A stretch of 64,000 nt of DNA, taken from a virus. The stretch lies in IMG/VR virus record IMGVR_UViG_3300045988_125278. One strand, given 5' to 3'. Under the pieces are notes generated by a model. That model did no database searches and was not told the origin of the DNA. It saw nothing but the letters and a program-made list of their open reading frames with translations. Every line of letters starts with the position of its first letter. Within the stretch, counting starts at the first letter, position 1. The position numbers were made by a program, and so were the translations under genes. Positions 10,220-24,990 of the stretch are shown one piece after another.

Positions 10220-11252
10220 GCTTGTATGAATATAGTCATGGCACGTTATTCTTATATTTCTATAAGCGCTGACTATCTCTTACCCTCTAAGTAAATAGAG
10301 AGGAAACCATTTCGGCATTTAACTCACTTCGTTTCCTAAAATGAGACTACGTATCAATAGTAGCCCTACTTCCCCGCCCGGAAGGCCTGGGGAATAGTCG
10401 ATACAGGTTATTTAGACGTTTTTCCAAGTTCTTTTATTAATTATATCAGCAATTGTACCTTTAGATACACCATATTTTTCTGCTAATTTGTCATAAGATA
10501 AATTTGTTTTTTCTCTATCTTCTCTAATTTGTTTAACTATATTAGCAGTTAACTTAGTATGGCGCCCTTTTTGAAATACTTCTGGCATAATTAATCCATA
10601 TCTTTTTCCAGTCCAAATATTTAAAAATGAATTATAATGTAATCTATTTACATATTTCTTTTTATATATTTCAGTAGGACTTTCTTTATTTAGATATGCT
10701 TTTCTTAATTCAATAACTTCTTCCTCTGTTAATTTAGCCTAACCCCAAATTTCTTTTTTTCTATATTCTAATGTTTTTGGCTTTTTACAATTCTTTCCGC
10801 CATCTTCAACATTATATCCATTGGGGACTTTTGAATTAAATTTATTTATATAATATATTTCAAGATTATTTAAAATCTCTACATCATCAATATCCTAAAC
10901 TAAGATTTCATAAGAGAAATTTTCATAACCATATTTTCTAAAAGCCTAATGTAACAATGAATTATACTCAATACTTTTAGGATTTTTATAATTACTTTTA
11001 TGACATCTAAATCTCTATTCAGGATTTATTGTTTGACCTATATATTTTTTATTATTTATTTTATTAGTATAACAATAAATAATACCCATTTAATCACTTC
11101 CTTCATTTTTATATGAAAGAAGTCAGAAGTTATTTGACTATAATCGTCCAAATTTTCCCACGGGATTCCCATGCGTTTTCCGTTTAGGGTTCCCCGTTAG
11201 CCTATTCATTTAAATAGACCCCTAGCGATAACTAGGAAAAGTTTTTCATTAT
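10220..11252 (-). mobile_element. group I intron (family copy A, boundaries +/-30 nt) in the DnaB-like helicase gene
   Basis: Splits a contiguous DnaB homologue; conserved core blocks shared with copies B and C (AAAAACUUUUCC..., GGCUAACGGGGAA, AAUCCCGUGGGAAA, CCUGUAUCGACUAUUCCCC...GGGG hairpin, AGAUAGUCA S-like element); contains a GIY-YIG ORF. Confidence 0.6.
10422..11089 (-). mobile_element. intron-encoded GIY-YIG homing endonuclease (4 in-frame TAGs)
   Basis: MGIIYCYTNKINNKKYIGQT...INPE(TAG)RFRCH...YGYENFSYEIL; NUMOD-like C-terminus. Confidence 0.8.
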
Positions 11253-12310
11253 CCCGGCACCCTTTTATTAGGGTCGAATATATATTTTACATCGTGATCT
11301 CGGATGCCTTTTTTGATTTCATTCTCGACATCCTGCAATGAAAAATCAGGTAATTCACGGATATACAATGGACTATCTTTAAGAATTTTCGCGGCTTCTA
11401 TTACTCGTTCTTTTTCATTTCCTTGATATTCATTATAAATAATATGTTCTTCATTTACGTTAGAAAGAAAAGCAAGCATCATTGTTTGAATTTCATTTTT
11501 ATCTTGCTCTGTAGTTATATATAATACTGGTTCTTGGATTCCGTTTTTAATCCAACTTCCAAAAGTATCATCATATATTTTATTACAAGCAATATAACAC
11601 GAATCCGCAATCATAGAACGAGTTTTACCTACACCGGTGGCCGCGGAGCGCAAATAAAACTTTTTAAGTCTCGCACCACGAGTAACTGTATTAATTAATG
11701 GCCCATATAGAGGACTTCCTGCTATTGGATGTTGCTCTAAATCATCAAGCAATTCAAAAATTCCATCACCTGCTTGAACCGCAACTCCCTCAACATCATT
11801 TACATATTCATATTTAATTTGTTCTATGCGGTCATCAATTAATTGTGCGATATGCTCTAATGAAGAATTATCAAGATTATCTTCTTGTAATTGTTTTTTT
11901 TCAGTATCTAAAATATTATCAGGATCATAAATAAAAGAAACATCAATGCCATATCTGTCATAAGCACGAAGTAGAGACATTTTTTTTAAACGACCATAAT
12001 AATAATCAAATGACAAAGGTTTCGCATTTTCAGAAACTTTTAATAACCATTCTTCACCTTTATTAACTTTAAATGTGGCTTCATATTTAGGTCGAGAAGA
12101 AAGAAAATCACTAATATTTTCTAAAGTAATTTTCTAAGCTCCTAATTCATGAATTTTATATATTGCTCCAAAAACAATTCTATGAAATTCATCAGCAAAA
12201 TCTTCATCAGTTATTGTATATCTATCAGTAAAATCCAAAAGCTAAGGAGTATTATATACACACCCTATAATTTGTGTAATCGCTGTTGGGTCTACATATT
12301 TACTCGGCAT
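11249..12310 (-). CDS. DnaB-like replicative helicase, 5' exon (2 in-frame TAGs near the N-terminus)
   Basis: Walker A RSAATGVGKTRSM; N-terminus MPSKYVDP... reached by reading through TAGs; reading frame ends in intron sequence at 11249. Confidence 0.7.
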
Positions 12311-12320
12311 TTAAGTCCTC

Positions 12321-12890
12321 CTATTCATCTAAAAATGTAAAAACTGATCTTTTTCGAGGTTCTTTTTTAGGAATAGGAATTTTTATTTCCTTTAATTTAG
12401 GAACGTAATCAATAACATTTTTATCTTTATTGGATTGTTGAATCATCCAAAGATTATAATAATAATTGTAAGCGTCTTTATAAATAAAAGGTATAATACC
12501 AATTCCACCATTAGCTTTATTTTTATTATTTCCTTTAACCTCATAAAAATAAACTAAGGCTTTTAACATTCCAGAATATGTATATTGATATTCTCTGATA
12601 TAATCATTCATTTGCTTGCGGACGCGAGCATTAATATATGATTCTCCCAATAAATTTTTTACATATTCTTCAAATTTTTCTTTATCTAAATCTTCTTTTG
12701 TTTTTACTTTTTCGGGCGGATTATGAACTTGTAAAGGAGTGTCTTCATTTTCAGCCTATTTAGCACATTCAGGGTGCGCATATCTTCGAGATTTTATTTG
12801 AACATAAGGAAACTTATCTCTATCAAAAGTCTGCTGACAATAAATACATTTAACTTTATGTATATAAATTACTCCTTTCCATTACTTTAT
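12321..12890 (-). CDS. hypothetical Zn-finger protein (one TAG)
   Basis: CIYCQQTFD...YAHPEC; joined to ORF 12321-12650 through TAG. Confidence 0.4.
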
Positions 12891-12896
12891 ATAAAT

Positions 12897-12925
12897 ATTA
12901 TACAATATTTTTAAATAAAAGTCAA
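12897..12925 (-). promoter_or_regulatory. promoter TTGACT-N17-TATAAT
   Basis: consensus hexamers, 17-nt spacer. Confidence 0.5.
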
Positions 12926-12952
12926 ACCGGAGCGACTTTTATCACTCCGGTT
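12925..12952 (-). terminator. hairpin terminator after AAA_24 ATPase gene
   Basis: ccggagcga...tcactccgg. Confidence 0.5.
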
Positions 12953-12968
12953 ATAAATTATATTTTAT

Positions 12969-13964
12969 TTACTTATTTTCCATTTGAGGAAGAAGATCAT
13001 CTTTAATTTCACCAACAATTAAAGATACAAATTCTGCCTGTTCGGGAGTGGCGTCAGAAATTTTCTTACCTTTGCCCAAATATTTATCAATAATTTGAGT
13101 GATACGAGGACCAAAGAATCCAGGATTCTTATTCATCATATCTCCAGCAAGATTTTGGAATTCAGCCATAAGTGCTTCATAATCATAACTAGGAGCTTCA
13201 GGAGCAACGACCATCTTTTCATCAGTGACAAATTTACCACCATTGTCAGCCGCTTCCTTATCAATAGCCTCATGAATGGCGTTAATAAGACTATCATAGT
13301 TCATAGGAATTTCGCTCTCAATATACTTAAAACGACCGCCACAGTCGATAAGGTCATTACCAGAACGAAGAGTTAGGACAGACATTTGGCCTGCTGCTTT
13401 TTGATGAGCATACCCGTAAACATCAGCCATACCGGTGATAATAGTGCGAGTGGATTGAGAAAGATTTGGTCTTACTGCCACAACCTCAGTGCCATCAGGA
13501 CGAGTTACAGTTTGTTCTTTTTCATGTCCGATAAAGAAAACAGCATATCCAAGACGAGTTAAACCTCTAAAGACTTCATTAAATTCATCTTTAAACTTAG
13601 ACCAGCCCTTACCATAACCAAGATCTCCAAGAGATTCAATTTGATTTTGATTACAAATATATTTCTCACAATACTTAGCAGCTTCGTCAATAGTATCTAC
13701 AATAATAGCATTATACATTGCCTTTACTTCTGGACGCTTCAAATCACGATAGACTTGCTTCATTTCTGCCCAAGAAGTAATGTCCGCGGCCATAACACCG
13801 GGAAGGCAGTTATAACCTTGCTCAAAAGCTAAAAGCAAAGAATTCGGCATTTGAGTCGCCAAAGTAGTCTTACCTGTCTTGGGCTTGCCATAAATAAAAG
13901 TAATATAACCAGAAAGATCTTTACTTACCTTATGAGGTTGAATTTTAGTTAAATCAATAGCCAT
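12969..13964 (-). CDS. AAA_24/Sak4-like RecA-fold ATPase
   Basis: ITFIYGKPKTGKTTLA Walker A near the N-terminus. Confidence 0.55.
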   Translation of the reverse strand: MAIDLTKIQPHKVSKDLSGYITFIYGKPKTGKTTLATQMPNSLLLAFEQGYNCLPGVMAADITSWAEMKQVYRDLKRPEVKAMYNAIIVDTIDEAAKYCEKYICNQNQIESLGDLGYGKGWSKFKDEFNEVFRGLTRLGYAVFFIGHEKEQTVTRPDGTEVVAVRPNLSQSTRTIITGMADVYGYAHQKAAGQMSVLTLRSGNDLIDCGGRFKYIESEIPMNYDSLINAIHEAIDKEAADNGGKFVTDEKMVVAPEAPSYDYEALMAEFQNLAGDMMNKNPGFFGPRITQIIDKYLGKGKKISDATPEQAEFVSLIVGEIKDDLLPQMENK

Positions 13965-14062
13965 TATGTTATTTCTCCTTATTTGTTTTAATTATTATCT
14001 CTTTAAGTATTTCTTCTAAATTCAGTATATTACAAAAATCATCATATAAATTAACTTTAGCG

Positions 14063-14091
14063 CGATGACCTCTTATTGTGAGGTCATCGCT
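14063..14091 (-). terminator. hairpin terminator
   Basis: gcgatgacctc-ttattgt-gaggtcatcgc. Confidence 0.55.
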
Positions 14092-14111
14092 ATTTAATGG
14101 CTAATTCATGA

Positions 14112-15059
14112 TTAGAATTTAAAGCCTTCCGTAGCAGTTGATGCAACAGTAGTAGCAGTAGTGGCATTCTGCTTAGAAGCTTTATATTCATCTTGACGCT
14201 GCTTCAAAGTAGCAAGATAAGTCTCACGTGCGGCCATAGCTTCAGTAAGCTCTTTTGCAGTGATAGAACTTTCATCATCCCAAACATAAGGCTCCTTTGC
14301 GCCACCGGTAATGACAAAATCCTTACGAGTGCTCTGAACTTCACGAACATTATCGTCACCGAACGCAGACTCTTCACGAATCTCGCGCTTAATTACTTCA
14401 GATACCTGACGACCCCAAAGCTTTGTGAATACAGGCTCAGAAGGAGAAGCTCCAAGACCCTCATAATAAGCCATAGCTCCAGGATTAGTGGCTGTAAACT
14501 CAACAGGAAGTAAAGACTTGCGGAAATCAAAAATTGCTCCCTTAACAATTACCTTTTCAGGGATATTATGCTCTTCATCAGCATCAACATGAGTCACATT
14601 GGTGATAATCATATCACACTTAAAAGTATTGCGCTGCTTTTCATCATCAATAAGAGTGGTAGTAGTATGAACAAATCCGCCCTCATTGCGCTTAGTGCTT
14701 ACAAGCTCTTCCTTGCCGTTACGATCAGAATAAAATTCATTAAGACCAATTGCGGAATCTACACGAAGCTTAGCAGCTTTATCTTCTCCATCAGCCATAT
14801 AATTACCGATTGTACCATCAATAATATTCTGAAGAATACTATATGTAGCATTAGGAGTGCCCTTAGTAGTAGTTTGAGTTACATAAGTAAAATGAACCTG
14901 GACGATATTAGTAAGAGCATTATCAGTAGCAATACTAATAGTACCAGAAATAAAAGGAGTGCCGGGGTTCTTAGAATTTGGTCCGGTTACCTTATTTTCC
15001 AAAGCATGTTCGTACAAGATACCTTCAATATGAGTAGTATTTTCCATTACTTTCTTCAT
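14112..15059 (-). CDS. hypothetical protein, possibly ssDNA-binding; higher GC, TAG-free
   Basis: ORF with acidic/aromatic C-terminal tail; hairpin terminator at 14063-14091. Confidence 0.35.
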   Translation of the reverse strand: MKKVMENTTHIEGILYEHALENKVTGPNSKNPGTPFISGTISIATDNALTNIVQVHFTYVTQTTTKGTPNATYSILQNIIDGTIGNYMADGEDKAAKLRVDSAIGLNEFYSDRNGKEELVSTKRNEGGFVHTTTTLIDDEKQRNTFKCDMIITNVTHVDADEEHNIPEKVIVKGAIFDFRKSLLPVEFTATNPGAMAYYEGLGASPSEPVFTKLWGRQVSEVIKREIREESAFGDDNVREVQSTRKDFVITGGAKEPYVWDDESSITAKELTEAMAARETYLATLKQRQDEYKASKQNATTATTVASTATEGFKF

Positions 15060-15073
15060 AAATAAATTTCTCC

Positions 15074-15451
15074 TTAATTAAATAAATTCAATAAATTAAT
15101 ATTTTTTCCTTTTTCTGTTAAAGTATAAATAATTGGATCTTGACTAACTTTTTCTACGAAACCATCAGATACTAATTTGCGCATGGAACCCGCAACTCCA
15201 CGGCTAGACACACCGAGATATTCGGCAATTTCTCTTGATTTAACAAGAGGAATATCTTTATTATTATCTTGCATCCATTTAATAATGGCTTTTCCGCCCT
15301 CAGTAAATAGAGGCTTTTCAGTTTCTTCTTTAGCTTTTAACGCTTCCCAATAGATACTAGCATCTTCACTCATTACTACTGGATAGCGGTTTTCATTAGT
15401 GGCAACAATTAATTCTTCAACATAATCAATAAATGCTTGTTTCTTACTCAT
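15074..15451 (-). CDS. winged-helix/MarR-like DNA-binding protein
   Basis: SREIAEYLGVSSRGVAGSMRKLVSDGFV HTH; promoter at 15490-15518. Confidence 0.45.
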   Translation of the reverse strand: MSKKQAFIDYVEELIVATNENRYPVVMSEDASIYWEALKAKEETEKPLFTEGGKAIIKWMQDNNKDIPLVKSREIAEYLGVSSRGVAGSMRKLVSDGFVEKVSQDPIIYTLTEKGKNINLLNLFN

Positions 15452-15489
15452 TTTAAAAAGTTTATAACCTTTCTTTATCTTATATAAAT

Positions 15490-15518
15490 ATTATATAATA
15501 TTTATTTAGAAAAATCAA
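15490..15518 (-). promoter_or_regulatory. promoter TTGATT-N17-TATAAT
   Basis: consensus hexamers, 17-nt spacer. Confidence 0.55.
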
Positions 15519-15537
15519 GTTATGATTAATTTACCAA

Positions 15538-16190
15538 TAGTTCTTCCGCATAAGGAAGAGTTTCAATCCATTTACAGAACTCTCTCCATTCGGGAAGACG
15601 ATGGTTTTTTCTCTAAATATATATGTTTCTTAAACATCTATAATTAGTAGTTAATCTTGCGGTAAGCAAAAATCCAGCAGGATTAGAGTATAGAATTTCA
15701 AGATATTTTTCTTTTCTAATCTCTTCTAACTGCTCAAGCATTTTAATTTTCTCATTTTTATTTTCAGTTTCACAATGCTTAATTCTATCAATAATACTTA
15801 AAAGTTCATTATAAATATCAACTTTCTCACGCATTATCTCAATGATTCTTGGATCAACATATTCATTATATTGTTCATTTAAATCAAATTTAGTAATGCA
15901 ATGCATTGTGGATTGTGAAGATACAAATTCAAGGAATCTATATCTTTCTGCTTCGACCCAAGCCTTATTGGAAAAAGTTAAATCAAAATTAACTCTAATA
16001 CCAGTTAAAAATTGTGCATGAGCCATATTACCACTTTTTGTGGCAGATACAAGATTCTAACATCTTGTCATATCTTTATCATTAATTGGGTGTTGCTCGG
16101 TATCCGTTCTCATTGGATATCCAGAAGCAACCATACTTTCTGGTAAGTCATAGACTCTTACATTACTGACGATTTTATTATTTTTCATAA
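15538..16190 (-). CDS. hypothetical protein (2 TAGs)
   Basis: ORF 15613-16026 extended both ways through TAG (15613, about 16060). Confidence 0.35.
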
Positions 16191-16466
16191 TCAATCCTCA
16201 TTACTTAAAGTATATCCGCTTAGATTATGCCCAAGAGAACGAACAAAACAATCAAGTTCATCAATGAATACCATACTGCCTTTTGGATAATTCCCATTTA
16301 TATAATCATAATATGAAATAAAATTAATTCCAATAATTCCATATCCTTCTGACTTAATTCTCATAGCATCAGGATTAGAACAAGCAATAATAGCATTTTT
16401 CTCTTTGGCTAACAGTATTAATCTACTCGTTTTTCCTGTTCCACGTTTATCAATTATTCTATACAT
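16191..16466 (-). CDS. small P-loop NTPase-like protein
   Basis: DKRGTGKTSRLILLA ... FIDELD. Confidence 0.35.
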   Translation of the reverse strand: MYRIIDKRGTGKTSRLILLAKEKNAIIACSNPDAMRIKSEGYGIIGINFISYYDYINGNYPKGSMVFIDELDCFVRSLGHNLSGYTLSNED

Positions 16467-16468
16467 TA

Positions 16469-16640
16469 TTTTATACTATACCCAAATTCCTTAGCTTTAA
16501 AATAGTCTTGCCAATAATCTTCTCGCATGTCTAACTCTTCACGAGAACATTCTTCTATTACTTCAAAACTAAAATTTTCTACTCCAATAGCTAACATAGC
16601 AGGATAAAGTTTATTGCGCGTGGCAGGTTCTGCACCAATT
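16469..16640 (-). CDS. 3' exon of membrane-anchored coiled-coil GIY-YIG-domain protein (boundary approximate)
   Basis: ...RWKQHIKRG...NKLYPAMLAIGVENFSFEVIEECSREELDMREDYWQDYF is the second half of a GIY-YIG domain; the annotated Met at 16744 lies inside conserved intron RNA also present in copy A. Confidence 0.45.
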
Positions 16641-17897
16641 CCGCGTTTAATATGTTGTTTCCAACGGTCAGCAATATTGCAAATTATTTTATAATTTTGA
16701 CTATCTTTTACTGTTAAAATTTTAACAGGAAACCATTTCGGCATTTAAAGGACTTCATCTCTTAAAATCCTACTACGTATCAATAGTAGCCCTACTCCCC
16801 TGTCCAGAAGACCGAGGGGATAGTCGATACAGGTTCTTTGATTAACGTGCTGGATAATCATAATTTTTTATAAGATATGACTCTCCTTTATTAATTTTAC
16901 TAACTGTATCACGATGTATATTATATTTAATACCAATATCAGACATTGATTTAGAACTATTTCTTAAATCTGATAAAATATTTTTTACTTCTTCAATAGT
17001 AAAATTCTGATTATTCCTAACATTTTTATTTCTAATAGGATAAATATAATTACCATTTTCTTTAAATAAAGTTCCTTGATTAATTGCTCTAATTACCTTT
17101 AAAGGGACTTTATACTTTTGAACTAAATCTGTTTCAATCTATAAATCCCAACGATACAATAAATCTTCCTTTAAATTTAATAATTCCTATTCATTAAGAA
17201 AATAATCTAAAATATTATCTTTTTTCGCAAAATCATGATTATTTTGTCTTAATGGATATGAAAGATTTGGATTAAAATATGTATTTCCTTGAGATATATT
17301 CAAAATAGTATTTTGACTAACTTGATATAAATTAGCAATATCTTTATAAGATAATTTAGTATTATTTATTAACAAATTTATAATTTCATTTAGTTGCTAT
17401 TCATTGAATTTAGAATTACAATTTTCTATTCCTCGTTTGCCAGAAACATTTCCATTTTTTAATATATTATATCCTATTGTTTTATCTGTAGCATTATAAA
17501 AATTAATCCATTTATCTTCTATCTCATCAAGCTATAAAATATCAGAGACCTATTCTAATATTTCAATTGTAGCTTGGTGTTTTTTTAAAGCCTAATCACA
17601 AATTTGAATATTTTTATGATTATGTTCATTGGCTCTAGACTAAATATTTAAAGCCTAACCAATATAAATTTTACCATTATCATAATTAATTTTATAAATA
17701 CCACAAATTTTTAAATTGTCATTAATGTTAGTAATCATTGTTGCTTCCACCGTCCTTCTATATATTTTTAATTTTTATGGAGGATGGATTAATCAAAGTT
17801 TCCCACGGGATTGATTAAAGTTAATTTTCCCCGTTAGCCGGCCATTTCCAAATTTTGGTAATTGACAGACCCCACTGATTAGTGGAAAAGTTTTTCA
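16641..17897 (-). mobile_element. group I intron (family copy B, boundaries approximate) interrupting a GIY-YIG-domain gene
   Basis: Shares 5' and 3' core blocks with copies A and C; separates the GIYKITNLENQMCYVGQA half from the R..H/ENF..E half of one GIY-YIG domain. Confidence 0.55.
16852..17738 (-). mobile_element. intron-encoded GIY-YIG homing endonuclease (about 8 in-frame TAGs)
   Basis: MITNINDNLKICGIYKINYDNGKIYIG(TAG)A...; HTH/NUMOD-like C-terminal repeats. Confidence 0.75.
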
Positions 17898-18710
17898 CCG
17901 GCCAGTATTGACCGCTTGACCCACATAACACATTTGATTTTCTAAATTAGTAATTTTATAAATTCCTGTATGGATTCCTGAGCCAATTACTCGACCAATC
18001 AAATCTGTAGTTGGTTTTTCATAATAGCTTTTCCAAATTACTTTATTTAAAATATCTTTATCACGAAGTCTTGGTTCAATAGAACGAAGAAGACTAATTT
18101 CATCAATATCTATTTGAGGCAACTATAATTTATAGAAATCAGCTTGGTTTTTAATTTCTTCGGCACGCTTTGCAGCATCAACTGCGGCCGCGACTTCTCT
18201 ACTATGTAATTGAATTTCTTCATCTAATTTATTTAATTCTTCTTTTTTAGAATCAATTAAATTAGATAATTCTAAAGAACAATCAACAAGAGTTGATTGA
18301 TATTCATTTTCATATTCTTCTTTAGCTTTTGTATATTTAAATTCTTGTTTATTTAAATCATATTCAAGACGAACGCGAGCATTTTCCATTGATTGTTGAT
18401 AAAAAATGTCCGCTGATTGTTTTGCTTGATTCTATAAAGAATTTAAGCTATTTTCAACTTCGTCTCTCTTGGACTAAAGAATATTTAGATTATTTTCTAC
18501 TTCTTCTTTTCTAGAAGTAATACTTTTTACTGCCGTTGATAATATTGTATACTAATCATCTAAATCTGAATTTTTAGATTCAAGCTCTTTATTTTGTTTT
18601 ACTATTTCTTCATTGAGCTTTTGGATGTTATTTAGTCGTGGACGTAAAATAAAATATATTAAAAATCCACCAACAATAAACGCCAGTATAGCAATTATTA
18701 AAGTAAGCAT
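17895..18710 (-). CDS. 5' exon of membrane-anchored coiled-coil GIY-YIG-domain protein (3 TAGs)
   Basis: N-terminal TM MLTLIIAILAFIVGGFLIYFIL, coiled coil, then ...TGIYKITNLENQMCYVGQAVNTGR followed by TGA inside intron sequence. Confidence 0.45.
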
Positions 18711-18769
18711 AAATACTTAAAAAAGAAGGGGCAGATATTAAATATCTACCCCTTAATAATCTATATTAA

Positions 18770-19039: not shown

Positions 19040-19130
19040 AATAATAATAATCTCCTTTAAATAATTAAATATTTTTTTTATTTTTTTCTTTTAACCTTTA
19101 GGTTATGTAAATATTATAGTAAAAAATTTT

Positions 19131-19331
19131 TTATTTGTCAAGAATTTTTCCAAGAATTTCTTGAACCATTTCATCAATGGTTGTAATATCATCAAGACTG
19201 TGAACGTGGCTCGAAAGTTCCATAATTTGATTCTGGGCTTTACGAACAGCTTGCGGGTCTTCACTTGTCTGAACGACTAATTCTGCATTAGCAATTTTTT
19301 TTGCGAGATTCTTGAGTTCTTTTGTTTTCAT
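19131..19331 (-). CDS. hypothetical small protein
   Basis: ORF with AAGGAAG RBS and TTGACA-N17-TAAAAT promoter (19365-19393). Confidence 0.35.
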   Translation of the reverse strand: MKTKELKNLAKKIANAELVVQTSEDPQAVRKAQNQIMELSSHVHSLDDITTIDEMVQEILGKILDK

Positions 19332-19364
19332 TTAAAAATTTTCTTCCTTAATTTTTACAAGTTT

Positions 19365-19393
19365 ATTTTACAAAAAATTTTTTTATTTGTCAA
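19365..19393 (-). promoter_or_regulatory. promoter TTGACA-N17-TAAAAT
   Basis: consensus hexamers. Confidence 0.5.
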
Positions 19394-20594
19394 AACATTC
19401 CGCCAAAGTGCAGTCGGTAATGTTCTTATCATCGCGGAATCCTTTAAAAAACCCATGTCTTAAAGTATGGTCTTTGCTATTAATCTCCATACATTGTATA
19501 GAAACTACTCGGTTAAGGTATTTTTTAGGTTCTTTAGCAAAAGCTTCTTTAAGTTCATCGGTTAATCCAGAGGATACCGTTCCAATTTCAATAAGATTTC
19601 CTTTATCATCATAGGCGCCTAACTTCATAGATGTCTTCCATCCATAATAATAGCCTTTGGTAATTGGTTGATAATATTTTTCATTATCTTCTAACAAATT
19701 ACTTCCATTAGCAGGAGGATTCTTTAAATAATTTTTATAAAAATTCCCTTTTACTAATTGGGGTTTCGACCACCCTGCGAAACAATGATCTTCTTCAAAA
19801 CAATTATAAAACATTGGTGTTTTTACTTCCCAATAAGGCCAAGTTGTAATTTCTTTACCATCATAATATTTAGTTGCTCCTTCAAATCCAATACAAATAC
19901 AATCAACATAATCCATCTTTTTAATTTTAATAGAAGACCATGCTGGTCGTTTGTCCGGAACATATGGAGCATCTTTTTTCTTTAAAACCGCACCTTCTTC
20001 ACCCGCGGCAAGGGCGGCCGCAGTAAACTCTTGAATATTATCAAGAACTGCACCTGCAAGTTCCATATAAGAATATTGACTTAAATTAAATTTATCCCAA
20101 ATGGCTTTTAATACCTGATAACGTGTCCAAGCACCCTCATTTTGAATATTAATTCCATTATATTTAATAACATCATGTAAATAATAATGGATTAATCCAC
20201 TGGACTGCTGACGTTTAATCGCTTCAGGTGCTAAACATCCCATAATTTTAGTCACATCTTTAGAAGTTTTACCTGGATAATAAATTTCACCTATTAAAAT
20301 AGTGCCGGAAGGTAAATCTTTGAGTGCTTCATGAATATGAGGGACATTTGCTAACTTTTCAGTTAAAATACCAGTATTTGCACTTACATTACGACTAAAT
20401 AAATAATCATAATGTTCTGTCTTTTCATACTGATACCAATATCCATCTTTTTTCAATTCAGCAAAATATTCACCGCCATTACAAACAACGGGGAAAAGAC
20501 TCTCTTTACCATCGGGCAATTTCCAAATTTTCATCGCTTGGATACAATCTGCTTCTGGAGCATACTTATCAAGCAATTCTTTAGAGAAACTCAT
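19383..20594 (-). CDS. ATP-dependent DNA ligase
   Basis: KxDG motif AELKKDGYW; size and context (between topo II and promoters). Confidence 0.7.
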   Translation of the reverse strand: MSFSKELLDKYAPEADCIQAMKIWKLPDGKESLFPVVCNGGEYFAELKKDGYWYQYEKTEHYDYLFSRNVSANTGILTEKLANVPHIHEALKDLPSGTILIGEIYYPGKTSKDVTKIMGCLAPEAIKRQQSSGLIHYYLHDVIKYNGINIQNEGAWTRYQVLKAIWDKFNLSQYSYMELAGAVLDNIQEFTAAALAAGEEGAVLKKKDAPYVPDKRPAWSSIKIKKMDYVDCICIGFEGATKYYDGKEITTWPYWEVKTPMFYNCFEEDHCFAGWSKPQLVKGNFYKNYLKNPPANGSNLLEDNEKYYQPITKGYYYGWKTSMKLGAYDDKGNLIEIGTVSSGLTDELKEAFAKEPKKYLNRVVSIQCMEINSKDHTLRHGFFKGFRDDKNITDCTLAECFDK

Positions 20595-20623
20595 TGATTT
20601 ATTTCCGTCCTATCTTTAAATAT

Positions 20624-20652
20624 ATTATAGAAAAATTTTTTAAAAAAATCAA
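20624..20652 (-). promoter_or_regulatory. promoter TTGATT-N17-TATAAT for the ligase gene
   Basis: consensus hexamers. Confidence 0.55.
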
Positions 20653-20655
20653 GTA

Positions 20656-20678
20656 AAGGAGGATATAATCCTCCTTTA
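20656..20678 (-). terminator. hairpin terminator after topo A gene
   Basis: aaaggagg-atataat-cctccttt. Confidence 0.55.
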
Positions 20679-20685
20679 TAAGATT

Positions 20686-23061
20686 TTATACCTTAGTTGC
20701 TGACTTAATCTTGCTAGACTTAATAATCTGATTACCAACAGAAATACGCCCAAGAGCAGGAATGTCTTTTGCGGAAACGCAAATAGATGCTTTATCCCCT
20801 GTAATAAGTAGATTATCTTCATCAGCAATTAACGCAGTTGCGGTCAATGGACCGGTAGACCCACTCGTTTTATATATATTAAGTCCTTTACCACCACGTT
20901 TTTGCAAAGTCAATTCATTTAAAGATAATTTCTTTCCTAAGCCATTTTCGCTAAATACTGCTATAGAATCAGTATCATGTCGAATTGGCATAGTAGAAAT
21001 TACTTCATCACCTTCGTTAAGATTAATACCTTTAACTCCAGCGGTAGCGCGAGAGGTCGCGGTAATGTCTGTAGAATTAAATTTAATTCCCATGCCATTT
21101 TTAGTTGTTAATATAATAGGCTCATCTTTAATTAAACATACAGATGCTAAACTATCGCCTTCGCGCAAACTAATTGCGACAATACCAGTCTTTTTCTTCG
21201 TATTAATATACTCTTCCAAAGCAGTCTTCTTTACAAGTCCATTCTTAGTAGTAAACAATACATATTTGGCATCAGTATCTCTATAAATTGAATACATTGT
21301 CTCAGGATTTTCATCAGGAGCCATATTTACAAGACTCTTAATAGATTGGCCTTGTGAGCTATTCGTTCCTACTGGAATATTGTCAACTAAAAGTCGATAC
21401 ATTACACCTTTATTTGAGAAAATCATTAGAGAATCAATGGTATTAGTTCTTAAAACACAAGAGGTAATATCTTCTTGAGATTTAATACCTTTACCATTTT
21501 TCTTTTGCGTGCGATAAGAAGCAGTCGGGATACGCTTAATTGTTCCACCCTCAGTCATTACAACAACACACTTTTCAGGTTCAACATACTCAATTTCTTT
21601 ATCTTCTTTTTCTACTGGAGCTTGAATGATTTTAGTAATACGCGCATCACCATAAGTATTTTTAATAGTAATGAAAATCTTTTCAAGTTCATCAGTGGGG
21701 TCTTTAAGAATTAAAGCTAAACGCTCACTCTCTTTAATTAAATTATCTCTTTCCTCTTGGATTTCAACTTTTTCTAAACGAGCTAATCTACTTAATTTAA
21801 TATCAAGAATTGCTTTAGCTTGATCTTCATCTAATTTATATTGAGTCATTAAAGCTTGACGAGCAACAACCGCGCTCTCGCTCTTTTTAATAAGAGCAAT
21901 TATATTATCAATATCTTCAAGTGCTTTAAGGATACCATTTAAAATATGAATACGAGCTTGTGCTTTATCATATTCATATTTTGTTTTTCTCAATATTACA
22001 TCTTTTTGATGACTAATATAAATTTCAATAAGTTGTTTAAGATTTAAAAGTTTTGGTTTCTTATTAACAAGAGCAACCTGATTAAAACTATATGTTTCTT
22101 CAAGACGAGATAACTTATAAAGTTTAGAAATAATAGGCTGAGCACTAACACCCTTATCAAGTTCAATTACAAAACGCACTCCATCTTTAGTGCTTTCATC
22201 TCTAATAGCAACAATGCCATTTAATTTGCCCTCTTCACAAAGTTTATCAATATCTTCACAAAGAGTATCTTTTGAAACTTTATAAGGAATTGTAGTAAAT
22301 ACAATTAAATCATGTGTTTTTTCATGCTCAATTACATAATCAGCCCTCATACGAGCTCGACCTTTACCAGTTAAATAAGCAGTTTTTAATTCATCTTTAT
22401 TGATAACAGTTCCACCAGTAGGAAAATCAGGGCCTTGGACAAATTGAAGCAAATCTTCAACTTTACACTCGCTATTACGCAAAGTGTAAATAATTGCATC
22501 CATAATTTCAATTAAATTATGTGGAGCAAAAGAACAAGCCATGGCAACTGCAATACCAGTAGTGCCATTTACAAGAAGGTGCGGAATTCGGCCCGGCAAA
22601 TACACTGGTTCATTTTCAACATCAGTATAAGCTAATTGCCAATCGCAAGTATTCTTTTTAATGTCAGCAAGCATTTCTTCGCCAATTTTAGATAATTTAC
22701 ATTCAGTATAACGATAAGCTGCTGGTTCTCCACCATCACGACTACCATTATTGCCATGGAATGAAATTAACGGATAACGCATCGTCCAAGGTTGGCTTAA
22801 AAGACATAAAGCTCCATAGATAGAGCTATCACCATGAGGATGAAAACGACCCATTGCATCACCGACAGGCTGAGCGCACTTAACAAACTTTTTATTATTA
22901 AGATATCCTTTATCAAACATATCATAAAGAATACGTCTTGCAACTGGTTTTAATCCATCTTCCGCAGATGGAATTGCTCTATCAGTTATTACACTTAAAG
23001 AGTAATCCAGGAAGGATTGCTCCACTTCATTAACTATTGGAGTTTTTAGAATCTCTCCCAT
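20686..23061 (-). CDS. type II DNA topoisomerase, GyrA/ParC-like subunit (T4 gp52-like)
   Basis: AQPVGDAMGRFHPHGDSSIYGALCLLSQPW...RYTECKLS catalytic-Tyr region. Confidence 0.85.
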   Translation of the reverse strand: MGEILKTPIVNEVEQSFLDYSLSVITDRAIPSAEDGLKPVARRILYDMFDKGYLNNKKFVKCAQPVGDAMGRFHPHGDSSIYGALCLLSQPWTMRYPLISFHGNNGSRDGGEPAAYRYTECKLSKIGEEMLADIKKNTCDWQLAYTDVENEPVYLPGRIPHLLVNGTTGIAVAMACSFAPHNLIEIMDAIIYTLRNSECKVEDLLQFVQGPDFPTGGTVINKDELKTAYLTGKGRARMRADYVIEHEKTHDLIVFTTIPYKVSKDTLCEDIDKLCEEGKLNGIVAIRDESTKDGVRFVIELDKGVSAQPIISKLYKLSRLEETYSFNQVALVNKKPKLLNLKQLIEIYISHQKDVILRKTKYEYDKAQARIHILNGILKALEDIDNIIALIKKSESAVVARQALMTQYKLDEDQAKAILDIKLSRLARLEKVEIQEERDNLIKESERLALILKDPTDELEKIFITIKNTYGDARITKIIQAPVEKEDKEIEYVEPEKCVVVMTEGGTIKRIPTASYRTQKKNGKGIKSQEDITSCVLRTNTIDSLMIFSNKGVMYRLLVDNIPVGTNSSQGQSIKSLVNMAPDENPETMYSIYRDTDAKYVLFTTKNGLVKKTALEEYINTKKKTGIVAISLREGDSLASVCLIKDEPIILTTKNGMGIKFNSTDITATSRATAGVKGINLNEGDEVISTMPIRHDTDSIAVFSENGLGKKLSLNELTLQKRGGKGLNIYKTSGSTGPLTATALIADEDNLLITGDKASICVSAKDIPALGRISVGNQIIKSSKIKSATKV

Positions 23062-23554
23062 ATTTTTTAAGGACCTCCTCAGCTGTAATTTTTCCAGTAG
23101 CGAGACCGTCTGCTAACTCATTCCACAAATGGCCATCATGCCCGGAAATTTTTCTCAAATCAATTTTGACTTCTTTCTCTGTTTCATAATAATCTTTAAT
23201 TAAATCAAGATTTTCTGGAACTTTTTTATTGGATTTAATCCAATTATTACGCTCCCATCCATACATCCAATTGGTAAAAGTATTTACACAATAGGCTGAA
23301 TCACTATATACAGTAGGGATATCATTAGTCCATTCTCCATTATCATGTTTACCATATTTTTTCAACACATGAAGAATAGCTTTAATTTCTTCTCTGTTAT
23401 TTGTAGTATCTTCAAAAGCGTTTATTTGACAAGCATCAATTACAACACCATTCTCAGGATTGCTATCATATTCAACAACAACAAACCCATAACCACCGCT
23501 ATTATTTTTTTGTCCGTTTTTGCGACATGAACCGTCAGTATAAATCGCAATCAT
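23030..23554 (-). CDS. rnh: ribonuclease HI
   Basis: IAIYTDGSC...NNREE...VYSDSAY...HDGHLWNELAD DEDD motifs. Confidence 0.8.
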   Translation of the reverse strand: MIAIYTDGSCRKNGQKNNSGGYGFVVVEYDSNPENGVVIDACQINAFEDTTNNREEIKAILHVLKKYGKHDNGEWTNDIPTVYSDSAYCVNTFTNWMYGWERNNWIKSNKKVPENLDLIKDYYETEKEVKIDLRKISGHDGHLWNELADGLATGKITAEEVLKKYGRDSKNSNS

Positions 23555-23828
23555 ATGATGGCCTCCCTAAAAATTCATTTTCTCCACAATCAATATGAAA
23601 AGAAGTATTAGTAAAAATAGTAATTTTATCAATAAAATAATCGTTAATAATATTTACTTTATTGTCTGGAAATAACTTTTGTAATTGCTCGTGGAGGTCT
23701 CTACAAGTAATTATATCAATATCTTTATTAACATGAGCTAAAATAACGTCATCTTTACGAATAGGAATTATTTCAATAGGCGTTCCTTTATAATTACTTA
23801 CATATCCCTTATCAGTTTTATACATCAA
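23535..23828 (-). CDS. hypothetical protein
   Basis: ORF. Confidence 0.3.
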   Translation of the reverse strand: MMYKTDKGYVSNYKGTPIEIIPIRKDDVILAHVNKDIDIITCRDLHEQLQKLFPDNKVNIINDYFIDKITIFTNTSFHIDCGENEFLGRPSYDCDLY

Positions 23829-24030
23829 TATTGGCCCTTTCTGCGTTTAACTCAATGAAAGATTTACGAGGGCCGACTGATTCCCCCATCAAATCCATAA
23901 ATGTTTTATTTACAAGATTCATATCATCCATTGTAATTTGTTTTAAGGTGCGAGTTTCTGGATTCATAACCAATTCCATCTCATGGGTGTCCATTTCGCC
24001 TACATGTTTCTCCAATATTACTATTGGCAC
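23818..24030 (-). CDS. type II topoisomerase GyrB-like subunit, 3' exon (true 5' boundary inside 23995-24030)
   Basis: KHVGEM...ELVMNPETRTLKQITMDDMNLVNKTFMDLMGESVGPRKSFIELNAERANIDV matches the GyrB C-terminus (KGLGEMNPE...LMGD.VEPRR.FIEENA). Confidence 0.75.
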   Translation of the reverse strand: MPIVILEKHVGEMDTHEMELVMNPETRTLKQITMDDMNLVNKTFMDLMGESVGPRKSFIELNAERANIDV

Positions 24031-24990
24031 TGACTAGTTCTTCGCTCCGGCTAACGTATTAACTGCCATCATCACGCCTACCTTTTTGAAAGTATGTATC
24101 AATAATACTTCCTACTCCCCGACAAAGGGGATAGTCGATACAGGATTAAACTACGATATTTTTCCAATTCTAATAACTCCATATATTTGTAAAAGAACCA
24201 TATGTAAGTTTATTAGAATAATCTTTATAAACTTCTCTTATATTTTCTCCATTTTTACGACGCAATCTTATTTGATAAACATCTTGTTCGGTCATTTTAG
24301 AGCGTCCATTTTTACTTCCCTAATTAGAAGTATTATGTTTATGAAAATTTTTATTTTCAATTGTATATACTTCTGGCATAATATTTTTCCAAGTATCACC
24401 ATTCCAAATTTTATGGAAGCCAGATTCACCAATTAAATTTTTATAATCTTCATAAACTTCATTTTTTCTTTCTTGATTATTATAACGAGTTCTAATATTA
24501 ATAACATCTTGTTTAGTTAATTTATGACTCGGATGACTTTCTTCAGTATTAAATTGCCCTCCAGGAGTCATATTATACTAATCAGGATAAGTATTATAAT
24601 ATTTTATATAATACTATTCTCTATCATTAAGTTCTTCGATAGAACATTCTTCTAATATCTCAAAAGAAAAATTATTTATTCCATATTCTAATATATCTTT
24701 ATATAACTTTTTATTTTTTTCTCTATACCAGTTATATGATTTTTTATGTTCTCTAAAACGCTATTCTATTTGTGTGCTTTGTCCTATATAAGATAAGTTA
24801 TTTATTTTATTGGTTATTTTATAAATACCAATCATTTTAATTACCTCACTAATTATAAGTAAGATAATATCGTAGTTCTTCCCACGAGATTATCTCCACT
24901 AATATTTAACGCTCATTCATTTCAATTTTTCCTGAAATGTCCTAAATATTAGCAAGACTGCCTCGTTAGCCGCCAACTGGAAAATTTTAC
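24000..24990 (-). mobile_element. group I intron (family copy C, boundaries approximate) in the GyrB-like topoisomerase gene
   Basis: Splits the GyrB homologue; conserved blocks CUUUUCC-hairpin, GGCUAACGAGGCA, AAUCUCGUGGGAAG, CCUGUAUCGACUAUCCCC..GGGG hairpin, ACUAGUCA. Confidence 0.55.
24157..24835 (-). mobile_element. intron-encoded GIY-YIG homing endonuclease (about 5 TAGs)
   Basis: MIGIYKITNKINNLSYIGQSTQIE(TAG)RFREH...YGINNFSFEILEEC. Confidence 0.75.

What the first reader, a model, noticed from the sequence alone, without database searches (positions are those of the whole stretch)
10220..24990. Three copies of one group I intron family, each with a GIY-YIG homing endonuclease ORF, in the DnaB-like helicase, the GyrB-like topoisomerase and a GIY-YIG-domain gene
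Host proteins are cleanly split: DnaB (...VKYIF | ...ILEEI...SATQLN), GyrB (ATPase/TOPRIM | KHVGEM...NPETR...LMGESVGPRKSFIE), and a GIY-YIG domain (GIYKITNLENQMCYVGQA | RWKQHIKRG...ENFSFEVIEE). The intervening sequences at about 10220-11252, 16641-17897 and 24000-24990 share conserved RNA blocks on the minus strand. The 5' block is AAAAACUUUUCC + hairpin + GGGGUC, GGCUAACGGGGAA, AAUCCCGUGGGAAA. The 3' block is CCUGUAUCGACUAUUCCCC-N-GGGG hairpin (P7/P8-like, GACUA) and AGAUAGUCA (S-like, UAGUC). The block AUGCCGAAAUGGUUUCC read as a Met start in the track is conserved RNA in copies A and B, not a protein start.
Basis: seen in the sequence. Interest (0 to 1): 0.7.

Follow-up and report, generated by a model that had tools for sequence, protein, structure and literature searches.

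The report
Three mobile self-splicing introns, recoded phage
Three related self-splicing group I introns, each carrying its own DNA-cutting "homing" enzyme gene, interrupt a helicase, a topoisomerase and a nuclease gene of a phage that reads the stop codon TAG as glutamine; this is a well-known kind of mobile element in a fairly new setting.

Summary
Three intervening sequences on the minus strand share one ribozyme core: A 10242-11276 in a DnaB-like helicase, B 16680-17910 in a GIY-YIG-domain gene, and C 24003-25045 in GyrB. A covariance model built from more than 100 metagenomic relatives scores them at 101-119 bits. It finds no fourth copy in the window, and it independently hits the proven T4 td intron (40 bits, E=6e-6). 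Covariation supports P3, P4/P5, P7.1, P7.2 and P9. Each 5' exon ends in U opposite a guide-sequence G, and each intron ends in G. The predicted spliced proteins are collinear with uninterrupted alleles in close relatives.

Four corrections apply:
- The "P7/P8-like" hairpin is P7.1.
- Rfam RF00028, the suggested check, fails here, but T4 td also falls below its threshold.
- The three GIY-YIG ORFs are open only if TAG is read as sense (4, 8 and 5 in-frame TAGs). The whole window is TAG-recoded, probably to Gln.

The endonuclease ORFs are the most TAG-rich genes (46% of Gln-type codons against 10% elsewhere). Each also has a hairpin covering its ribosome-binding site, as in T4 I-TevI. Stop-codon loading of an intron endonuclease is already published for TGA-recoded phages. 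Verdict: a new member of a known kind.

The parts
10242..11276 (-). Intron A (1035 nt) in the DnaB-like helicase gene. Exon 1 ends ...AAATATATATT at 11277 and exon 2 starts CCATGACTAT at 10241.
   Evidence: Splicing gives ...DVKYIF-HDYIHTSMKILEE. This 130-aa junction segment is 100% identical to, and contiguous with, at least 12 intron-less alleles. It aligns without a gap to Thermus DnaB. CM R1 scores the 3' core at 118.9 bits.
11156..11253 (-). Intron A 5' ribozyme core: guide sequence GATAAT 11248-11253, P3 5' strand 11237-11244, two hairpins 11221-11236 and 11199-11220, P4-P5-P4' 11160-11197, P6 5' strand 11156-11159.
   Evidence: Coordinates. Helices from family covariation and RNAalifold.
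11096..11123 (-). Hairpin (11 bp) whose 3' arm holds the Shine-Dalgarno-like GAAGGAAG of the intron A endonuclease ORF.
   Evidence: dG -15.2 kcal/mol, z -2.6. T4 I-TevI has the same arrangement (control; PMC2988022).
10412..11089 (-). Intron A endonuclease ORF, 225 aa, GIY-YIG plus C-terminal HTH, with 4 in-frame TAG codons.
   Evidence: Pfam GIY-YIG 35.1 bits (cut-off 22.6) over profile positions 1-78 of 78; HTH_3 25.7 bits. TAG makes up 4 of 7 Gln-type codons.
10242..10408 (-). Intron A 3' ribozyme core: P6 3' strand and J6/7 10400-10408, P7 5' 10394-10399, P7.1 10371-10393, P7.2 10345-10366, P3 3' 10304-10312, P8 10283-10303, P7 3' 10271-10276, P9 10251-10266, terminal G at 10242.
16680..17910 (-). 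Intron B (1231 nt) in a gene for a protein with an N-terminal hydrophobic stretch (read by eye as a transmembrane helix), a coiled coil and a GIY-YIG domain. Exon 1 ends ...CAAGCGGT at 17911 and exon 2 starts CAATATTGCTGAC at 16679.
   Evidence: Splicing gives YVGQAV-NIADRWKQH. It is collinear with 80 uninterrupted homologues; for example L122, 96% identical, reads YVGQAVDLSARWKQH. The Pfam GIY-YIG match spans the junction. CM R1 scores it at 102.4 bits.
16842..17738 (-). Intron B endonuclease ORF, 298 aa, GIY-YIG plus HTH-like repeats, with 8 in-frame TAG codons. It is preceded by a weaker hairpin covering the Shine-Dalgarno sequence at 17746-17788.
   Evidence: Pfam GIY-YIG 34.0 bits. YIG-TAG-A sits where homologues have YIGQA. 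Hairpin z -1.1.
24003..25045 (-). Intron C (1043 nt) in the GyrB-like topoisomerase gene. Exon 1 ends ...ATGAAAGGGT at 25046 and exon 2 starts TAGGCGAAATGG at 24002.
   Evidence: Splicing gives RMKGLGEM, which aligns without a gap to E. coli GyrB RYKGLGEM. P1 is AAGGGU/GCCCUU, 6 bp with a U.G pair. Contig L069 has an ORF-less intron at the identical site. CM R1 scores it at 101.0 bits.
24146..24835 (-). Intron C endonuclease ORF, 229 aa, GIY-YIG, with 5 in-frame TAG codons. It is preceded by an 11-bp hairpin covering the Shine-Dalgarno sequence at 24840-24868.
   Evidence: Pfam GIY-YIG 36.0 bits. Hairpin dG -17.3 kcal/mol, z -3.6.
9743..12310 (-). Host gene 1: DnaB-like replicative helicase. 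Exons are 11277-12310 and 9743-10241. There are 2 TAG codons in the N-terminal part.
   Evidence: The spliced product matches Pfam DnaB_C (57.1 bits, residues 207-471, across the junction) and the DnaB N-terminal domain.
16466..18710 (-). Host gene 2: conserved coiled-coil plus GIY-YIG nuclease-domain gene. Exons are 17911-18710 and 16466-16679. There are 4 TAG codons.
   Evidence: Pfam GIY-YIG 38.4 bits, residues 249-329. PHROG endonuclease families match the C-terminal domain only. The gene is present and uninterrupted in 80 related contigs.
23818..26798 (-). Host gene 3: GyrB-like type IIA topoisomerase ATPase/TOPRIM subunit. Exons are 25046-26798 and 23818-24002. There are no TAG codons.
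   Evidence: Pfam matches: DNA_gyraseB 175 bits, Toprim, HATPase_c, and DNA_gyraseB_C over residues 576-635, across the junction.

Best explanation
The three elements are mobile group I self-splicing introns of a single family related to the phage T4 td and Twort (IA2) type.

Splicing (inferred from the fold; not tested). Each intron is transcribed as part of its host gene. It folds into a ribozyme with these elements: P1 formed by the last exon bases and an internal guide sequence with a U.G pair; P3; P4-P6; P7 with the IA-type P7.1 and P7.2 hairpins; P8; P9; and a terminal G. It then removes itself and joins the exons, so that DnaB, GyrB and the GIY-YIG-domain protein are made intact.

Homing. 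The loop of P6 holds an I-TevI-like GIY-YIG endonuclease gene. By analogy with T4, this enzyme cuts intron-less alleles in co-infecting relatives, and repair copies the intron in, together with a few flanking exon bases. Mobility is supported here by presence/absence polymorphism. The cleavage itself is inferred.

Recoding. The host phage reads TAG as an amino acid, most likely Gln, and the three endonuclease genes can only be translated in that mode.

Timing. The ORFs are heavily loaded with TAG. Each also has its ribosome-binding site buried in a hairpin. Endonuclease synthesis is therefore probably held back until late in infection. This would also keep ribosomes out of the ribozyme while it folds. 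This step is inferred, by analogy with T4 I-TevI and with a published proposal for TGA-recoded phages.
For: Homology and fold:
- The family 3'-core model R1 hits T4 td, which was not in the training set, at 40.2 bits, E=5.6e-6. It hits two introns in the split DNA polymerase of Enterococcus phage EF1 at 109.3 and 40.5 bits.
- On 47 family members the 3' core has 96.7% paired cells, against 34-44% when the partners are slid. It has 207 double-change cells, against 22-41 slid. No shuffle in 500 reached the observed values.
- The whole fold on 60 members has 94.7% paired cells against 40-47% slid, and 562 double-change cells against 96-136 slid. P3 is 95.2% paired with 73 double changes, P4/P5 96.6%, and P7.2 99%.

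Splice sites:
- All three 5' exons end in U and all three introns end in G.
- The guide-sequence G lies 7-8 nt before P3 in 49 of 60 members.
- The guide sequence changes with the exon. Examples are AAGGGU/GCCCUU, AAGGAU/GUCCUU, AAUGGU/GCCAUU, CGGU/GCCG, GCGU/GCGC, UAUU/GAUA and UGUU/GACA.
- The spliced products are collinear with uninterrupted homologues.

Endonuclease:
- All three ORFs match Pfam GIY-YIG over its full length and above the cut-off.

Mobility:
- The flanking exons are 96-99% identical to intron-less alleles. The nearest sampled relatives of introns A, B and C are only 83%, 93% and 97% identical.
- ORF-less versions occur at the same GyrB site (L069) and at the same GIY-YIG-gene site (L057).
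- The exon bases next to the insertion sites differ between intron-plus and intron-minus alleles.

Recoding:
- Only TAG interrupts otherwise full-length genes. Examples are a RecJ-like gene with 7 TAGs, a lysin with 9, a radical-SAM gene, and the DnaB N-terminus.
- TAG positions align with Gln-rich columns (15.4% against a 3.4% background). In the YIGQ column there are 45 Gln and 16 TAG.
- An orthologous Gln codon in host gene B is TAG in relative L138.

Timing:
- TAG makes up 17 of 37 Gln-type codons in the intron ORFs, against 52 of 502 in other genes (Fisher p=2e-7).
- Hairpins covering the Shine-Dalgarno sequence score z -2.6, -1.1 and -3.6. The T4 I-TevI control scores -3.6.
- The T4 precedent is in PMC2988022. 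The precedent for recoded phages is in bioRxiv 10.1101/2021.08.26.457843.
Against: - Rfam RF00028 finds nothing in the window at its gathering score, nor at E<=10 over 9500-26000. On the 3' half of intron A alone it gives 12.7 bits, E=0.49. The ORF-less relative of intron C reaches only 23.4 bits. However, the positive control T4 td also fails, at 40.3 bits against a threshold of 50.
- P1 is only 4 bp in introns A and B. The automated P1 search beat a shuffled guide sequence only modestly (mean stem 5.0 against 4.05 bp).
- P7 and part of P7.1 never vary, because the relatives were collected with an exact 18-nt pattern that covers those strands. These helices therefore carry no covariation evidence.
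- The hairpin upstream of the intron B ORF is weak.
- None of the six tRNAs in the window is a TAG suppressor, so the decoding agent is not seen.
- No expression data exist. Splicing, cleavage and timing are all inferred.
Confidence: 0.88

Rival explanations
1. The introns are real, but the endonuclease ORFs are dead pseudogenes broken by TAG stops. The introns would then be immobile relics, like the T4 nrdB intron with its defunct I-TevIII.
For: Under the standard code each ORF is cut into pieces of 83 aa or less. No suppressor tRNA is present in the window.
Against: The only internal stops are TAG. There is no TAA or TGA and no frameshift across 225-298 codons in any of the three ORFs. The same pattern occurs in essential genes of the window. 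In the family, 34 of 74 endonuclease ORFs show TAG-only interruptions, and those TAGs fall on Gln-rich columns. The Pfam domain match runs through the TAG positions.
Confidence: 0.06
2. The host genes are genuinely split. Separate polypeptides assemble after translation, and the conserved RNA blocks serve another role, such as regulation or a non-splicing RNA.
For: No splicing data exist. Rfam does not recognise the RNA.
Against: The exon 1 reading frames run into the conserved RNA and end at arbitrary stops. The junctions fall inside indivisible motifs (KG|LGEM, the Walker-B-like IF|HDY, and between the YIG motif and the conserved Arg of GIY-YIG). They restore exact collinearity with uninterrupted alleles. 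The RNA is homologous to the self-splicing td intron.
Confidence: 0.03
3. The introns need a protein cofactor or host factor and are not autonomous ribozymes. They would splice in vivo only.
For: P1 is short (4 bp) in introns A and B. The family lacks a P2 hairpin between P1 and P3 and has two extra hairpins after the P3 5' strand. In Bastillevirinae phages, four of the eight introns that spliced did so only in infected cells (PMC11878797 abstract).
Against: The complete catalytic core is conserved and covaries. Close structural relatives (td and Twort) self-splice in vitro; this is from my own knowledge.
Confidence: 0.15

Closest known systems
Phage T4 td group I intron (IA2) with the GIY-YIG endonuclease I-TevI
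   Same: The core blocks are shared: UAACGGGGAAC...AAUCCCGUG, CGACUAUCCC-loop-GGGGAGUAGGG, and GAGAUAUAGUC. P7.1 and P7.2 are present. The endonuclease ORF sits in the P6 loop. A hairpin covers the ORF's ribosome-binding site. The intron lies in a DNA-metabolism gene at a conserved motif. The family model hits td at 40.2 bits.
   Different: td has a P2 hairpin between P1 and P3. In this family P3 follows the guide sequence after 2-3 nt, and two hairpins lie between the P3 5' strand and J3/4. The host genes differ (DnaB, GyrB and a GIY-YIG gene, rather than td). The ORFs need TAG read as sense.
Group I introns of Herelleviridae phages (Twort, SPO1, Bastille, and Enterococcus phage EF1)
   Same: Multiple related introns per genome in replication genes. 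The 3' core of intron A is 80% identical over 166 nt to an element in the split DNA polymerase III alpha gene of EF1. R1 scores that element at 109.3 bits.
   Different: The host phage lineage differs and uses the standard code. The EF1 neighbour intron carries an HNH endonuclease, not a GIY-YIG one.
Group I intron endonuclease in TGA-recoded 'Agate' phages (Borges et al., bioRxiv 10.1101/2021.08.26.457843)
   Same: An intron-encoded homing endonuclease inside an early gene is preferentially loaded with the reassigned stop codon. The authors propose that this delays endonuclease production until late in infection.
   Different: That case is TGA to Trp and concerns one gene family. Here the reassignment is TAG, probably to Gln, with three introns in one genome. 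The same intron family is also seen with TGA-sense ORFs (L012, L072, L103) and with standard-code ORFs.
Self-splicing introns in crAss-like phages that use alternative codes (Yutin et al., PMC7886860)
   Same: Gut phages that combine stop-codon reassignment with group I introns in essential genes. I know this only from the title and term counts.
   Different: I did not read the paper beyond the listing. The window shows no near match to any GenBank phage. Its gene content (GyrA/B, DnaB, ligase, RNA-repair genes) and the roughly 190-200 kb relatives point to a different lineage.

Membership tests
Group I intron | Conserved core helices P3, P4, P5, P6, P7, P8 and P9 in the canonical order, with the P3/P7 pseudoknot | tested here: met
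   RNAalifold plus covariation on 47-60 relatives. P3, P4/P5, P7.2 and P9 covary. P6 and P7 are present but invariant. P8 is a variable hairpin seen by eye in each copy and is not in the consensus.
Group I intron | 5' splice site after a U that pairs with a G of the internal guide sequence in P1 | tested here: met
   The exons end in ...ATT...GGT and ...GGT. The guide-sequence G lies 7-8 nt before P3 in 49 of 60 family members. The guide sequence changes with the exon across 29 distinct exon/guide pairs. The statistical excess over shuffles is modest.
Group I intron | The intron ends in G (omega-G) directly before the 3' exon | tested here: met
   Introns A, B and C end in ...ACGTG...ATTTG and ...ACATG. 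These are the only positions that also restore the reading frame and collinearity with intron-less alleles.
Group I intron | Sequence and structure homology to an experimentally self-splicing member | tested here: met
   R1, built without td, hits the 3' core of the T4 td intron at 40.2 bits, E=5.6e-6. The blocks are alignable by eye.
Group I intron | Reaches the Rfam RF00028 gathering score (50 bits) | tested here: not met
   No hit at the gathering score or at E<=10. The 3' half of intron A scores 12.7 bits. The ORF-less relative of intron C scores 23.4 bits. The td control scores 40.3 bits and also fails, so this criterion is insensitive for ORF-bearing IA2-type introns.
Group I intron | Guanosine-dependent self-splicing | not testable with these tools
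   This needs an in vitro transcription and splicing assay, or RNA from infected cells.
Subgroup IA (td/Twort-like) | Extra P7.1 and P7.2 hairpins between the P7 5' strand and the P3 3' strand | tested here: met
   P7.1 has 4 bp, one of which covaries (C:G 27, U:A 20). P7.2 has 7 bp, all covarying.
Subgroup IA (td/Twort-like) | P2 hairpin between P1 and P3, as in td and Twort | tested here: not met
   P3 begins 2-3 nt after the guide sequence. Two hairpins lie between the P3 5' strand and J3/4 instead. P3.1 is listed as an optional group I helix in PMC3873408. I could not assign the exact subgroup.
GIY-YIG homing endonuclease (I-TevI-like) | N-terminal GIY-YIG catalytic domain | tested here: met
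   Pfam PF01541 scores 35.1, 34.0 and 36.0 bits against a cut-off of 22.6, covering nearly the whole profile, after TAG is read as Gln.
GIY-YIG homing endonuclease (I-TevI-like) | C-terminal DNA-binding module joined to the catalytic domain by a linker | tested here: inconclusive
   HTH_3 is above its cut-off in ORF A. ORF B has only sub-threshold HTH matches and ORF C has none.
GIY-YIG homing endonuclease (I-TevI-like) | Cleaves the intron-less allele near the insertion site | not testable with these tools
   Candidate substrates are available: L201-L212 for DnaB and L121-L130 for host gene B.
TAG-reassigned (code 15-like) phage | In-frame TAG in conserved genes, at positions where homologues have Gln | tested here: met
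   TAG-only interruptions occur in many genes. TAG positions fall on Gln-enriched columns; the YIGQ column has 45 Gln and 16 TAG. An orthologous Gln codon is TAG in L138.
TAG-reassigned (code 15-like) phage | Phage-encoded suppressor tRNA (anticodon CUA) or another decoding device | tested here: not met
   The six tRNAs in the window are Cys, Lys, Gly, Ser, Ser and Thr. The window is about one third of a genome of roughly 190-200 kb, so the gene may lie elsewhere.

The most novel reading that the evidence does not exclude
One mobile intron-endonuclease family has spread among phages that use three different genetic codes: standard, TAG read as Gln, and TGA read as Trp. It is found at the same GyrB, DnaB and GIY-YIG-gene homing sites. 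After each move the endonuclease ORF becomes selectively enriched in the local reassigned stop codon. The reassigned stop then acts as a built-in timer. Together with the hairpin over the ribosome-binding site, it stops ribosomes within the first ~25-28 codons early in infection. This protects ribozyme folding and delays DNA cleavage until the code switch. It is a second, independent solution to the problem that T4 solves with a late promoter.
Probability: 0.35. Interest if true: 0.6.

Novelty: new member of a known kind. Interest (0 to 1): 0.4.

Why it matters
- Annotation. Gene callers that use the standard code will report six broken host-gene fragments and about a dozen short ORFs here. 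Rfam will not flag the introns. A family-specific model (R1, and the alignment behind it) recovers them, along with more than 100 relatives in IMG/VR.
- Biology. The locus gives a clean natural test bed for the published idea that reassigned stop codons time the expression of selfish endonucleases. It offers three introns in early replication genes, ORFs with 42-57% of Gln-type codons as TAG, and near-identical intron-less alleles that can serve as cleavage substrates.
- Evolution. The same intron family occurs with TAG-sense, TGA-sense and standard ORFs. It can therefore be used to ask how mobile elements cross genetic-code boundaries.

Tried and rejected
- Rfam cmscan of the whole window at gathering scores gave only tRNAs.
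- Rfam at E<=10 on 9500-26000 gave no group I hit.
- Rfam on 12 loci with ORF-less family members gave no hit to the family. It found only two unrelated introns in L023.
- Rfam on the 3' half of intron A alone gave 12.7 bits. I rejected Rfam as a decisive test after T4 td itself scored 40.3 bits against a threshold of 50.
- Megablast of 20 kb of the window against GenBank phages found no match, so the phage cannot be named that way.
- I first assumed a td-like layout with P2 before P3 and a P3 5' strand just upstream of UAACGGGG. Covariation placed the P3 5' strand directly after the guide sequence instead.
- Sliding the splice site of intron B within the repeated CAATA was rejected, because only one position leaves a terminal G.
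- Alternative DnaB junctions (YIYYIH and YIFDPKIL) were rejected by collinearity with intron-less alleles.
- The automated P1 search is permissive. For intron B it picked a different 5-bp pairing than the one shared by the other members at the same site.
- An intein explanation was rejected. The inserts are not in frame and contain stops in the host frame.
- phAss-1, a published TAG-recoded phage (PMC10607447), was checked for introns. None is mentioned.

Full report
**What is in the sequence**

All genes in 9.7-27 kb run on the minus strand. Three genes are interrupted:
- a DnaB-like helicase (ORF pieces 11249..12016/12310 and 9743..10219);
- a gene ending in a GIY-YIG domain (17895..18122 and 16466..16744);
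- a GyrB-like topoisomerase subunit (24987..26798 and 23818..24030).

An 18-nt string, CCTGTATCGACTATYCCC, is present exactly once in each gap.

**Is it a group I intron? The suggested test fails, so I used others**

Rfam finds no group I intron in the window:
- nothing at gathering scores;
- nothing at E<=10 on 9500-26000;
- on the 3' half of copy A alone, RF00028 reaches 12.7 bits, E=0.49.

As a control I fetched the classical T4 td intron (L002). Rfam gives it 40.3 bits, below the 50-bit threshold, and aligns only its 3' half. The Rfam result therefore says little for ORF-bearing introns of this type.

Most have the 5' block about 800 nt upstream, so they carry an ORF. About a dozen have it 50-190 nt upstream and are ORF-less.

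From 47 non-redundant 3' cores I made alignment A3. RNAalifold recovers P7, P7.1, P7.2 and P9. The pair counts are as follows:
- 96.7% of cells are paired, against 34-44% when the partners are slid;
- 207 cells carry a change on both sides, against 22-41 when slid;
- none of 500 shuffles reaches the observed values.

One caveat applies. P7 and part of P7.1 cannot vary, because the collecting pattern covers them.

A covariance model built from A3 (R1) was run without filters:
- the three window copies score 118.9, 102.4 and 101.0 bits;
- nothing else in the window scores above 16.3 bits (E=0.28);
- T4 td, which was not used in training, scores 40.2 bits, E=5.6e-6;
- two elements in the split DNA polymerase of Enterococcus phage EF1 score 109.3 and 40.5 bits. 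One of them lies next to an ORF that the record annotates as 'HNH homing endonuclease # Phage intron'.

**The 5' half and the whole fold**

I joined the 5' and 3' cores of 60 non-redundant members and folded the alignment. Counting pairs on that fold gave 94.7% paired against 40-47% slid, and 562 double-change cells against 96-136 slid.

| Helix | Sequence in copy A | Support |
|---|---|---|
| P3 | AAACUUUU / AAAuGGUUU | 95.2% paired, 73 double changes |
| P4/P5 | - | 96.6% paired |
| P6 | GGGA / UCCU | invariant |
| P7.2 | - | 99% paired |
| P9 | - | 88.6% paired |

The P3 5' strand starts only 2-3 nt after the guide sequence. There is therefore no P2 between P1 and P3. Instead, two hairpins sit between the P3 5' strand and J3/4 (UAA). 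This differs from td and Twort. Extra helices named P3.1 are listed as optional group I elements (PMC3873408), so I treat this as a family trait and not as a novelty. The ORF sits in the P6 loop, as in td.

**Splice sites**

Three rules were combined: the reading frame, the requirement for a U before the 5' splice site and a G at the intron's end, and the position of the guide-sequence G.

| Intron | Coordinates | Exon 1 ends | Intron 3' end and exon 2 start | Spliced protein |
|---|---|---|---|---|
| A | 10242-11276 | ...ATATATT | ...ACGTG \| CCATGAC | KYIF-HDYIHTS |
| B | 16680-17910 | ...GCGGT | ...ATTTG \| CAATATT | GQAV-NIADRWKQH |
| C | 24003-25045 | ...AAGGGT | ...ACATG \| TAGGCGAA | RMKG-LGEM |

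Four lines of evidence support them:
- The GyrB product aligns without a gap to E. coli GyrB RYKGLGEM.
- The DnaB product aligns without a gap to Thermus DnaB at the IIIDYLQL motif.
- A 130-aa segment across the DnaB junction is contiguous in 80 IMG/VR loci. It is 100% identical in at least 12 of them, with 96-97% nucleotide identity.
- The host-B segment is contiguous in 80 loci, with up to 96% identity.

Pfam domains (DnaB_C, GIY-YIG and DNA_gyraseB_C) run across all three junctions.

The guide-sequence G lies 7-8 nt before P3 in 49 of 60 family members. The guide sequence tracks the exon across 29 distinct exon/guide pairs. The excess over a shuffled guide sequence is modest (mean stem 5.0 against 4.05 bp).

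**Mobility**

The window's exons are 96-99% identical to intron-less alleles in relatives. The nearest sampled relatives of introns A, B and C are only 83%, 93% and 97% identical.

Contig IMGVR_UViG_3300045988_118866 (194 kb) illustrates the polymorphism. It has no intron in DnaB (L210), none in host gene B (L122), and an ORF-less intron at the same GyrB site (L069).

Exon bases next to the insertion sites differ between intron-plus and intron-minus alleles. In DnaB the codon is TTC in the window and TTT in the intron-less alleles. In host gene B the residues are NIAD in the window and DLSA in the intron-less alleles. This is the pattern expected from co-conversion or from target-site immunity.

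The same three sites recur in many unrelated contigs.

**The endonuclease ORFs and the genetic code**

Under the standard code the inserts hold only short ORFs. If TAG is read through, each holds one ORF of 225, 298 or 229 aa with 4, 8 or 5 TAGs and no other stop. All three match the complete Pfam GIY-YIG domain above its cut-off.

TAG-only interruptions are also found in other genes across the window: a RecJ-like gene, an amidase/lysin, a radical-SAM gene, and the DnaB N-terminus.

I classified 74 distinct endonuclease ORFs from the family:
- 34 are open only with TAG read as sense;
- 28 are standard;
- 3 are open only with TGA read as sense;
- 9 are ambiguous.

In the same alignment, TAG cells fall on Gln-rich columns (15.4% against a 3.4% background), and the YIGQ column has 45 Gln and 16 TAG. 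TGA cells fall on Trp columns (39% against 1.6%).

No suppressor tRNA is among the six tRNAs in the window.

**Timing**

TAG supplies 17 of 37 Gln-type codons in the three intron ORFs, against 52 of 502 in the other genes (p=2e-7). GyrB, the ligase and the primase have none.

Each ORF has a Shine-Dalgarno-like sequence inside the 3' arm of a hairpin:
- A: 11 bp, z -2.6;
- B: weaker, z -1.1;
- C: 11 bp, z -3.6;
- T4 I-TevI control: z -3.6.

In T4 such hairpins block translation from early transcripts, and a late promoter frees the ribosome-binding site (PMC2988022). Borges et al. already reported a group I intron endonuclease in an early gene of TGA-recoded phages that is preferentially recoded. 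They proposed that the in-frame stops delay its production.

The timing model for this locus is therefore an inference from two precedents. It is not a new concept.

**Verdict**

The observation and the interpretation both stand, with the boundaries corrected and the dependence on TAG recoding added.

The kind of element is classical. The setting is worth recording but is not surprising to a specialist. That setting comprises three copies in one TAG-recoded genome of about 190-200 kb, a family invisible to Rfam, one host gene that is itself a GIY-YIG gene, and the same family found in three genetic codes.

Noticed in passing
window 1-64000 (e.g. 5275-7041, 29030-30403, 32488-33780, 11249-12310); tRNAs at 55972-61397: The whole window behaves as TAG-recoded. 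Many full-length genes are interrupted only by TAG. None of the six tRNAs (Cys, Lys, Gly, Ser, Ser, Thr) has a CUA anticodon, so the decoding agent must lie elsewhere in the genome.
   Followed up: partly
window 26780-27529 and 37826-38566: Two free-standing GIY-YIG endonuclease-like ORFs. One lies directly upstream of gyrB. Both are TAG-rich (TAG share of Gln-type codons 0.33 and 0.62), like the intron-encoded ones. I identified them from their motifs only and did not scan them against Pfam.
   Followed up: no
window 58360-58965: An ORF between tRNA genes whose sequence (…WWYMDDGS…) looks like a LAGLIDADG-type endonuclease. I did not test this against any profile.
   Followed up: no
window ~49300-54800 (also 35569-36954 and 43220-44599): These genes have higher G+C (0.40 against about 0.30). 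Their Gln codons are almost all CAG instead of CAA, and they have no TAG; for example, 49298-51796 has 0 CAA and 28 CAG. They include matches to an RNA-binding/RNA-repair-type protein (phrog_850), an RNA ligase and a nucleotidyltransferase. This may be a recently acquired module.
   Followed up: partly
window 11199-11244, 17836-17893, 24968-25025: The family has no P2 between P1 and P3. Two covarying hairpins lie between the P3 5' strand and J3/4. This differs from T4 td and Twort, although the rest of the core is homologous. P3.1 is a named optional helix, but I could not place the family in a subgroup.
   Followed up: partly
L001 (Enterococcus phage EF1, MF001358.1) 945-1076 and 3006-3174: The GenBank record splits 'DNA polymerase III alpha subunit' into pieces and annotates 'hypothetical proteins' where the family model finds two group I intron 3' cores (40.5 and 109.3 bits). 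The introns themselves are not annotated.
   Followed up: partly
L023 13518-13821 and 14842-14969: Two further group I introns of another type, recognised by Rfam (59.3 and 52.0 bits), lie in the same IMG/VR contig that also carries a member of this family.
   Followed up: no
L012, L072, L103 (IMG/VR contigs): Members of the same intron family at the GyrB site have endonuclease ORFs with 4-7 in-frame TGA codons. These align with Trp in homologues, so the family also lives in TGA-recoded phages.
   Followed up: partly
window 16680-16684 vs 17906-17910: Intron B begins with CAATA, and exon 2 also begins with CAATA. This short direct repeat at the two junctions makes the boundary ambiguous from sequence alone. 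It could reflect P10 pairing or the homing history.
   Followed up: no
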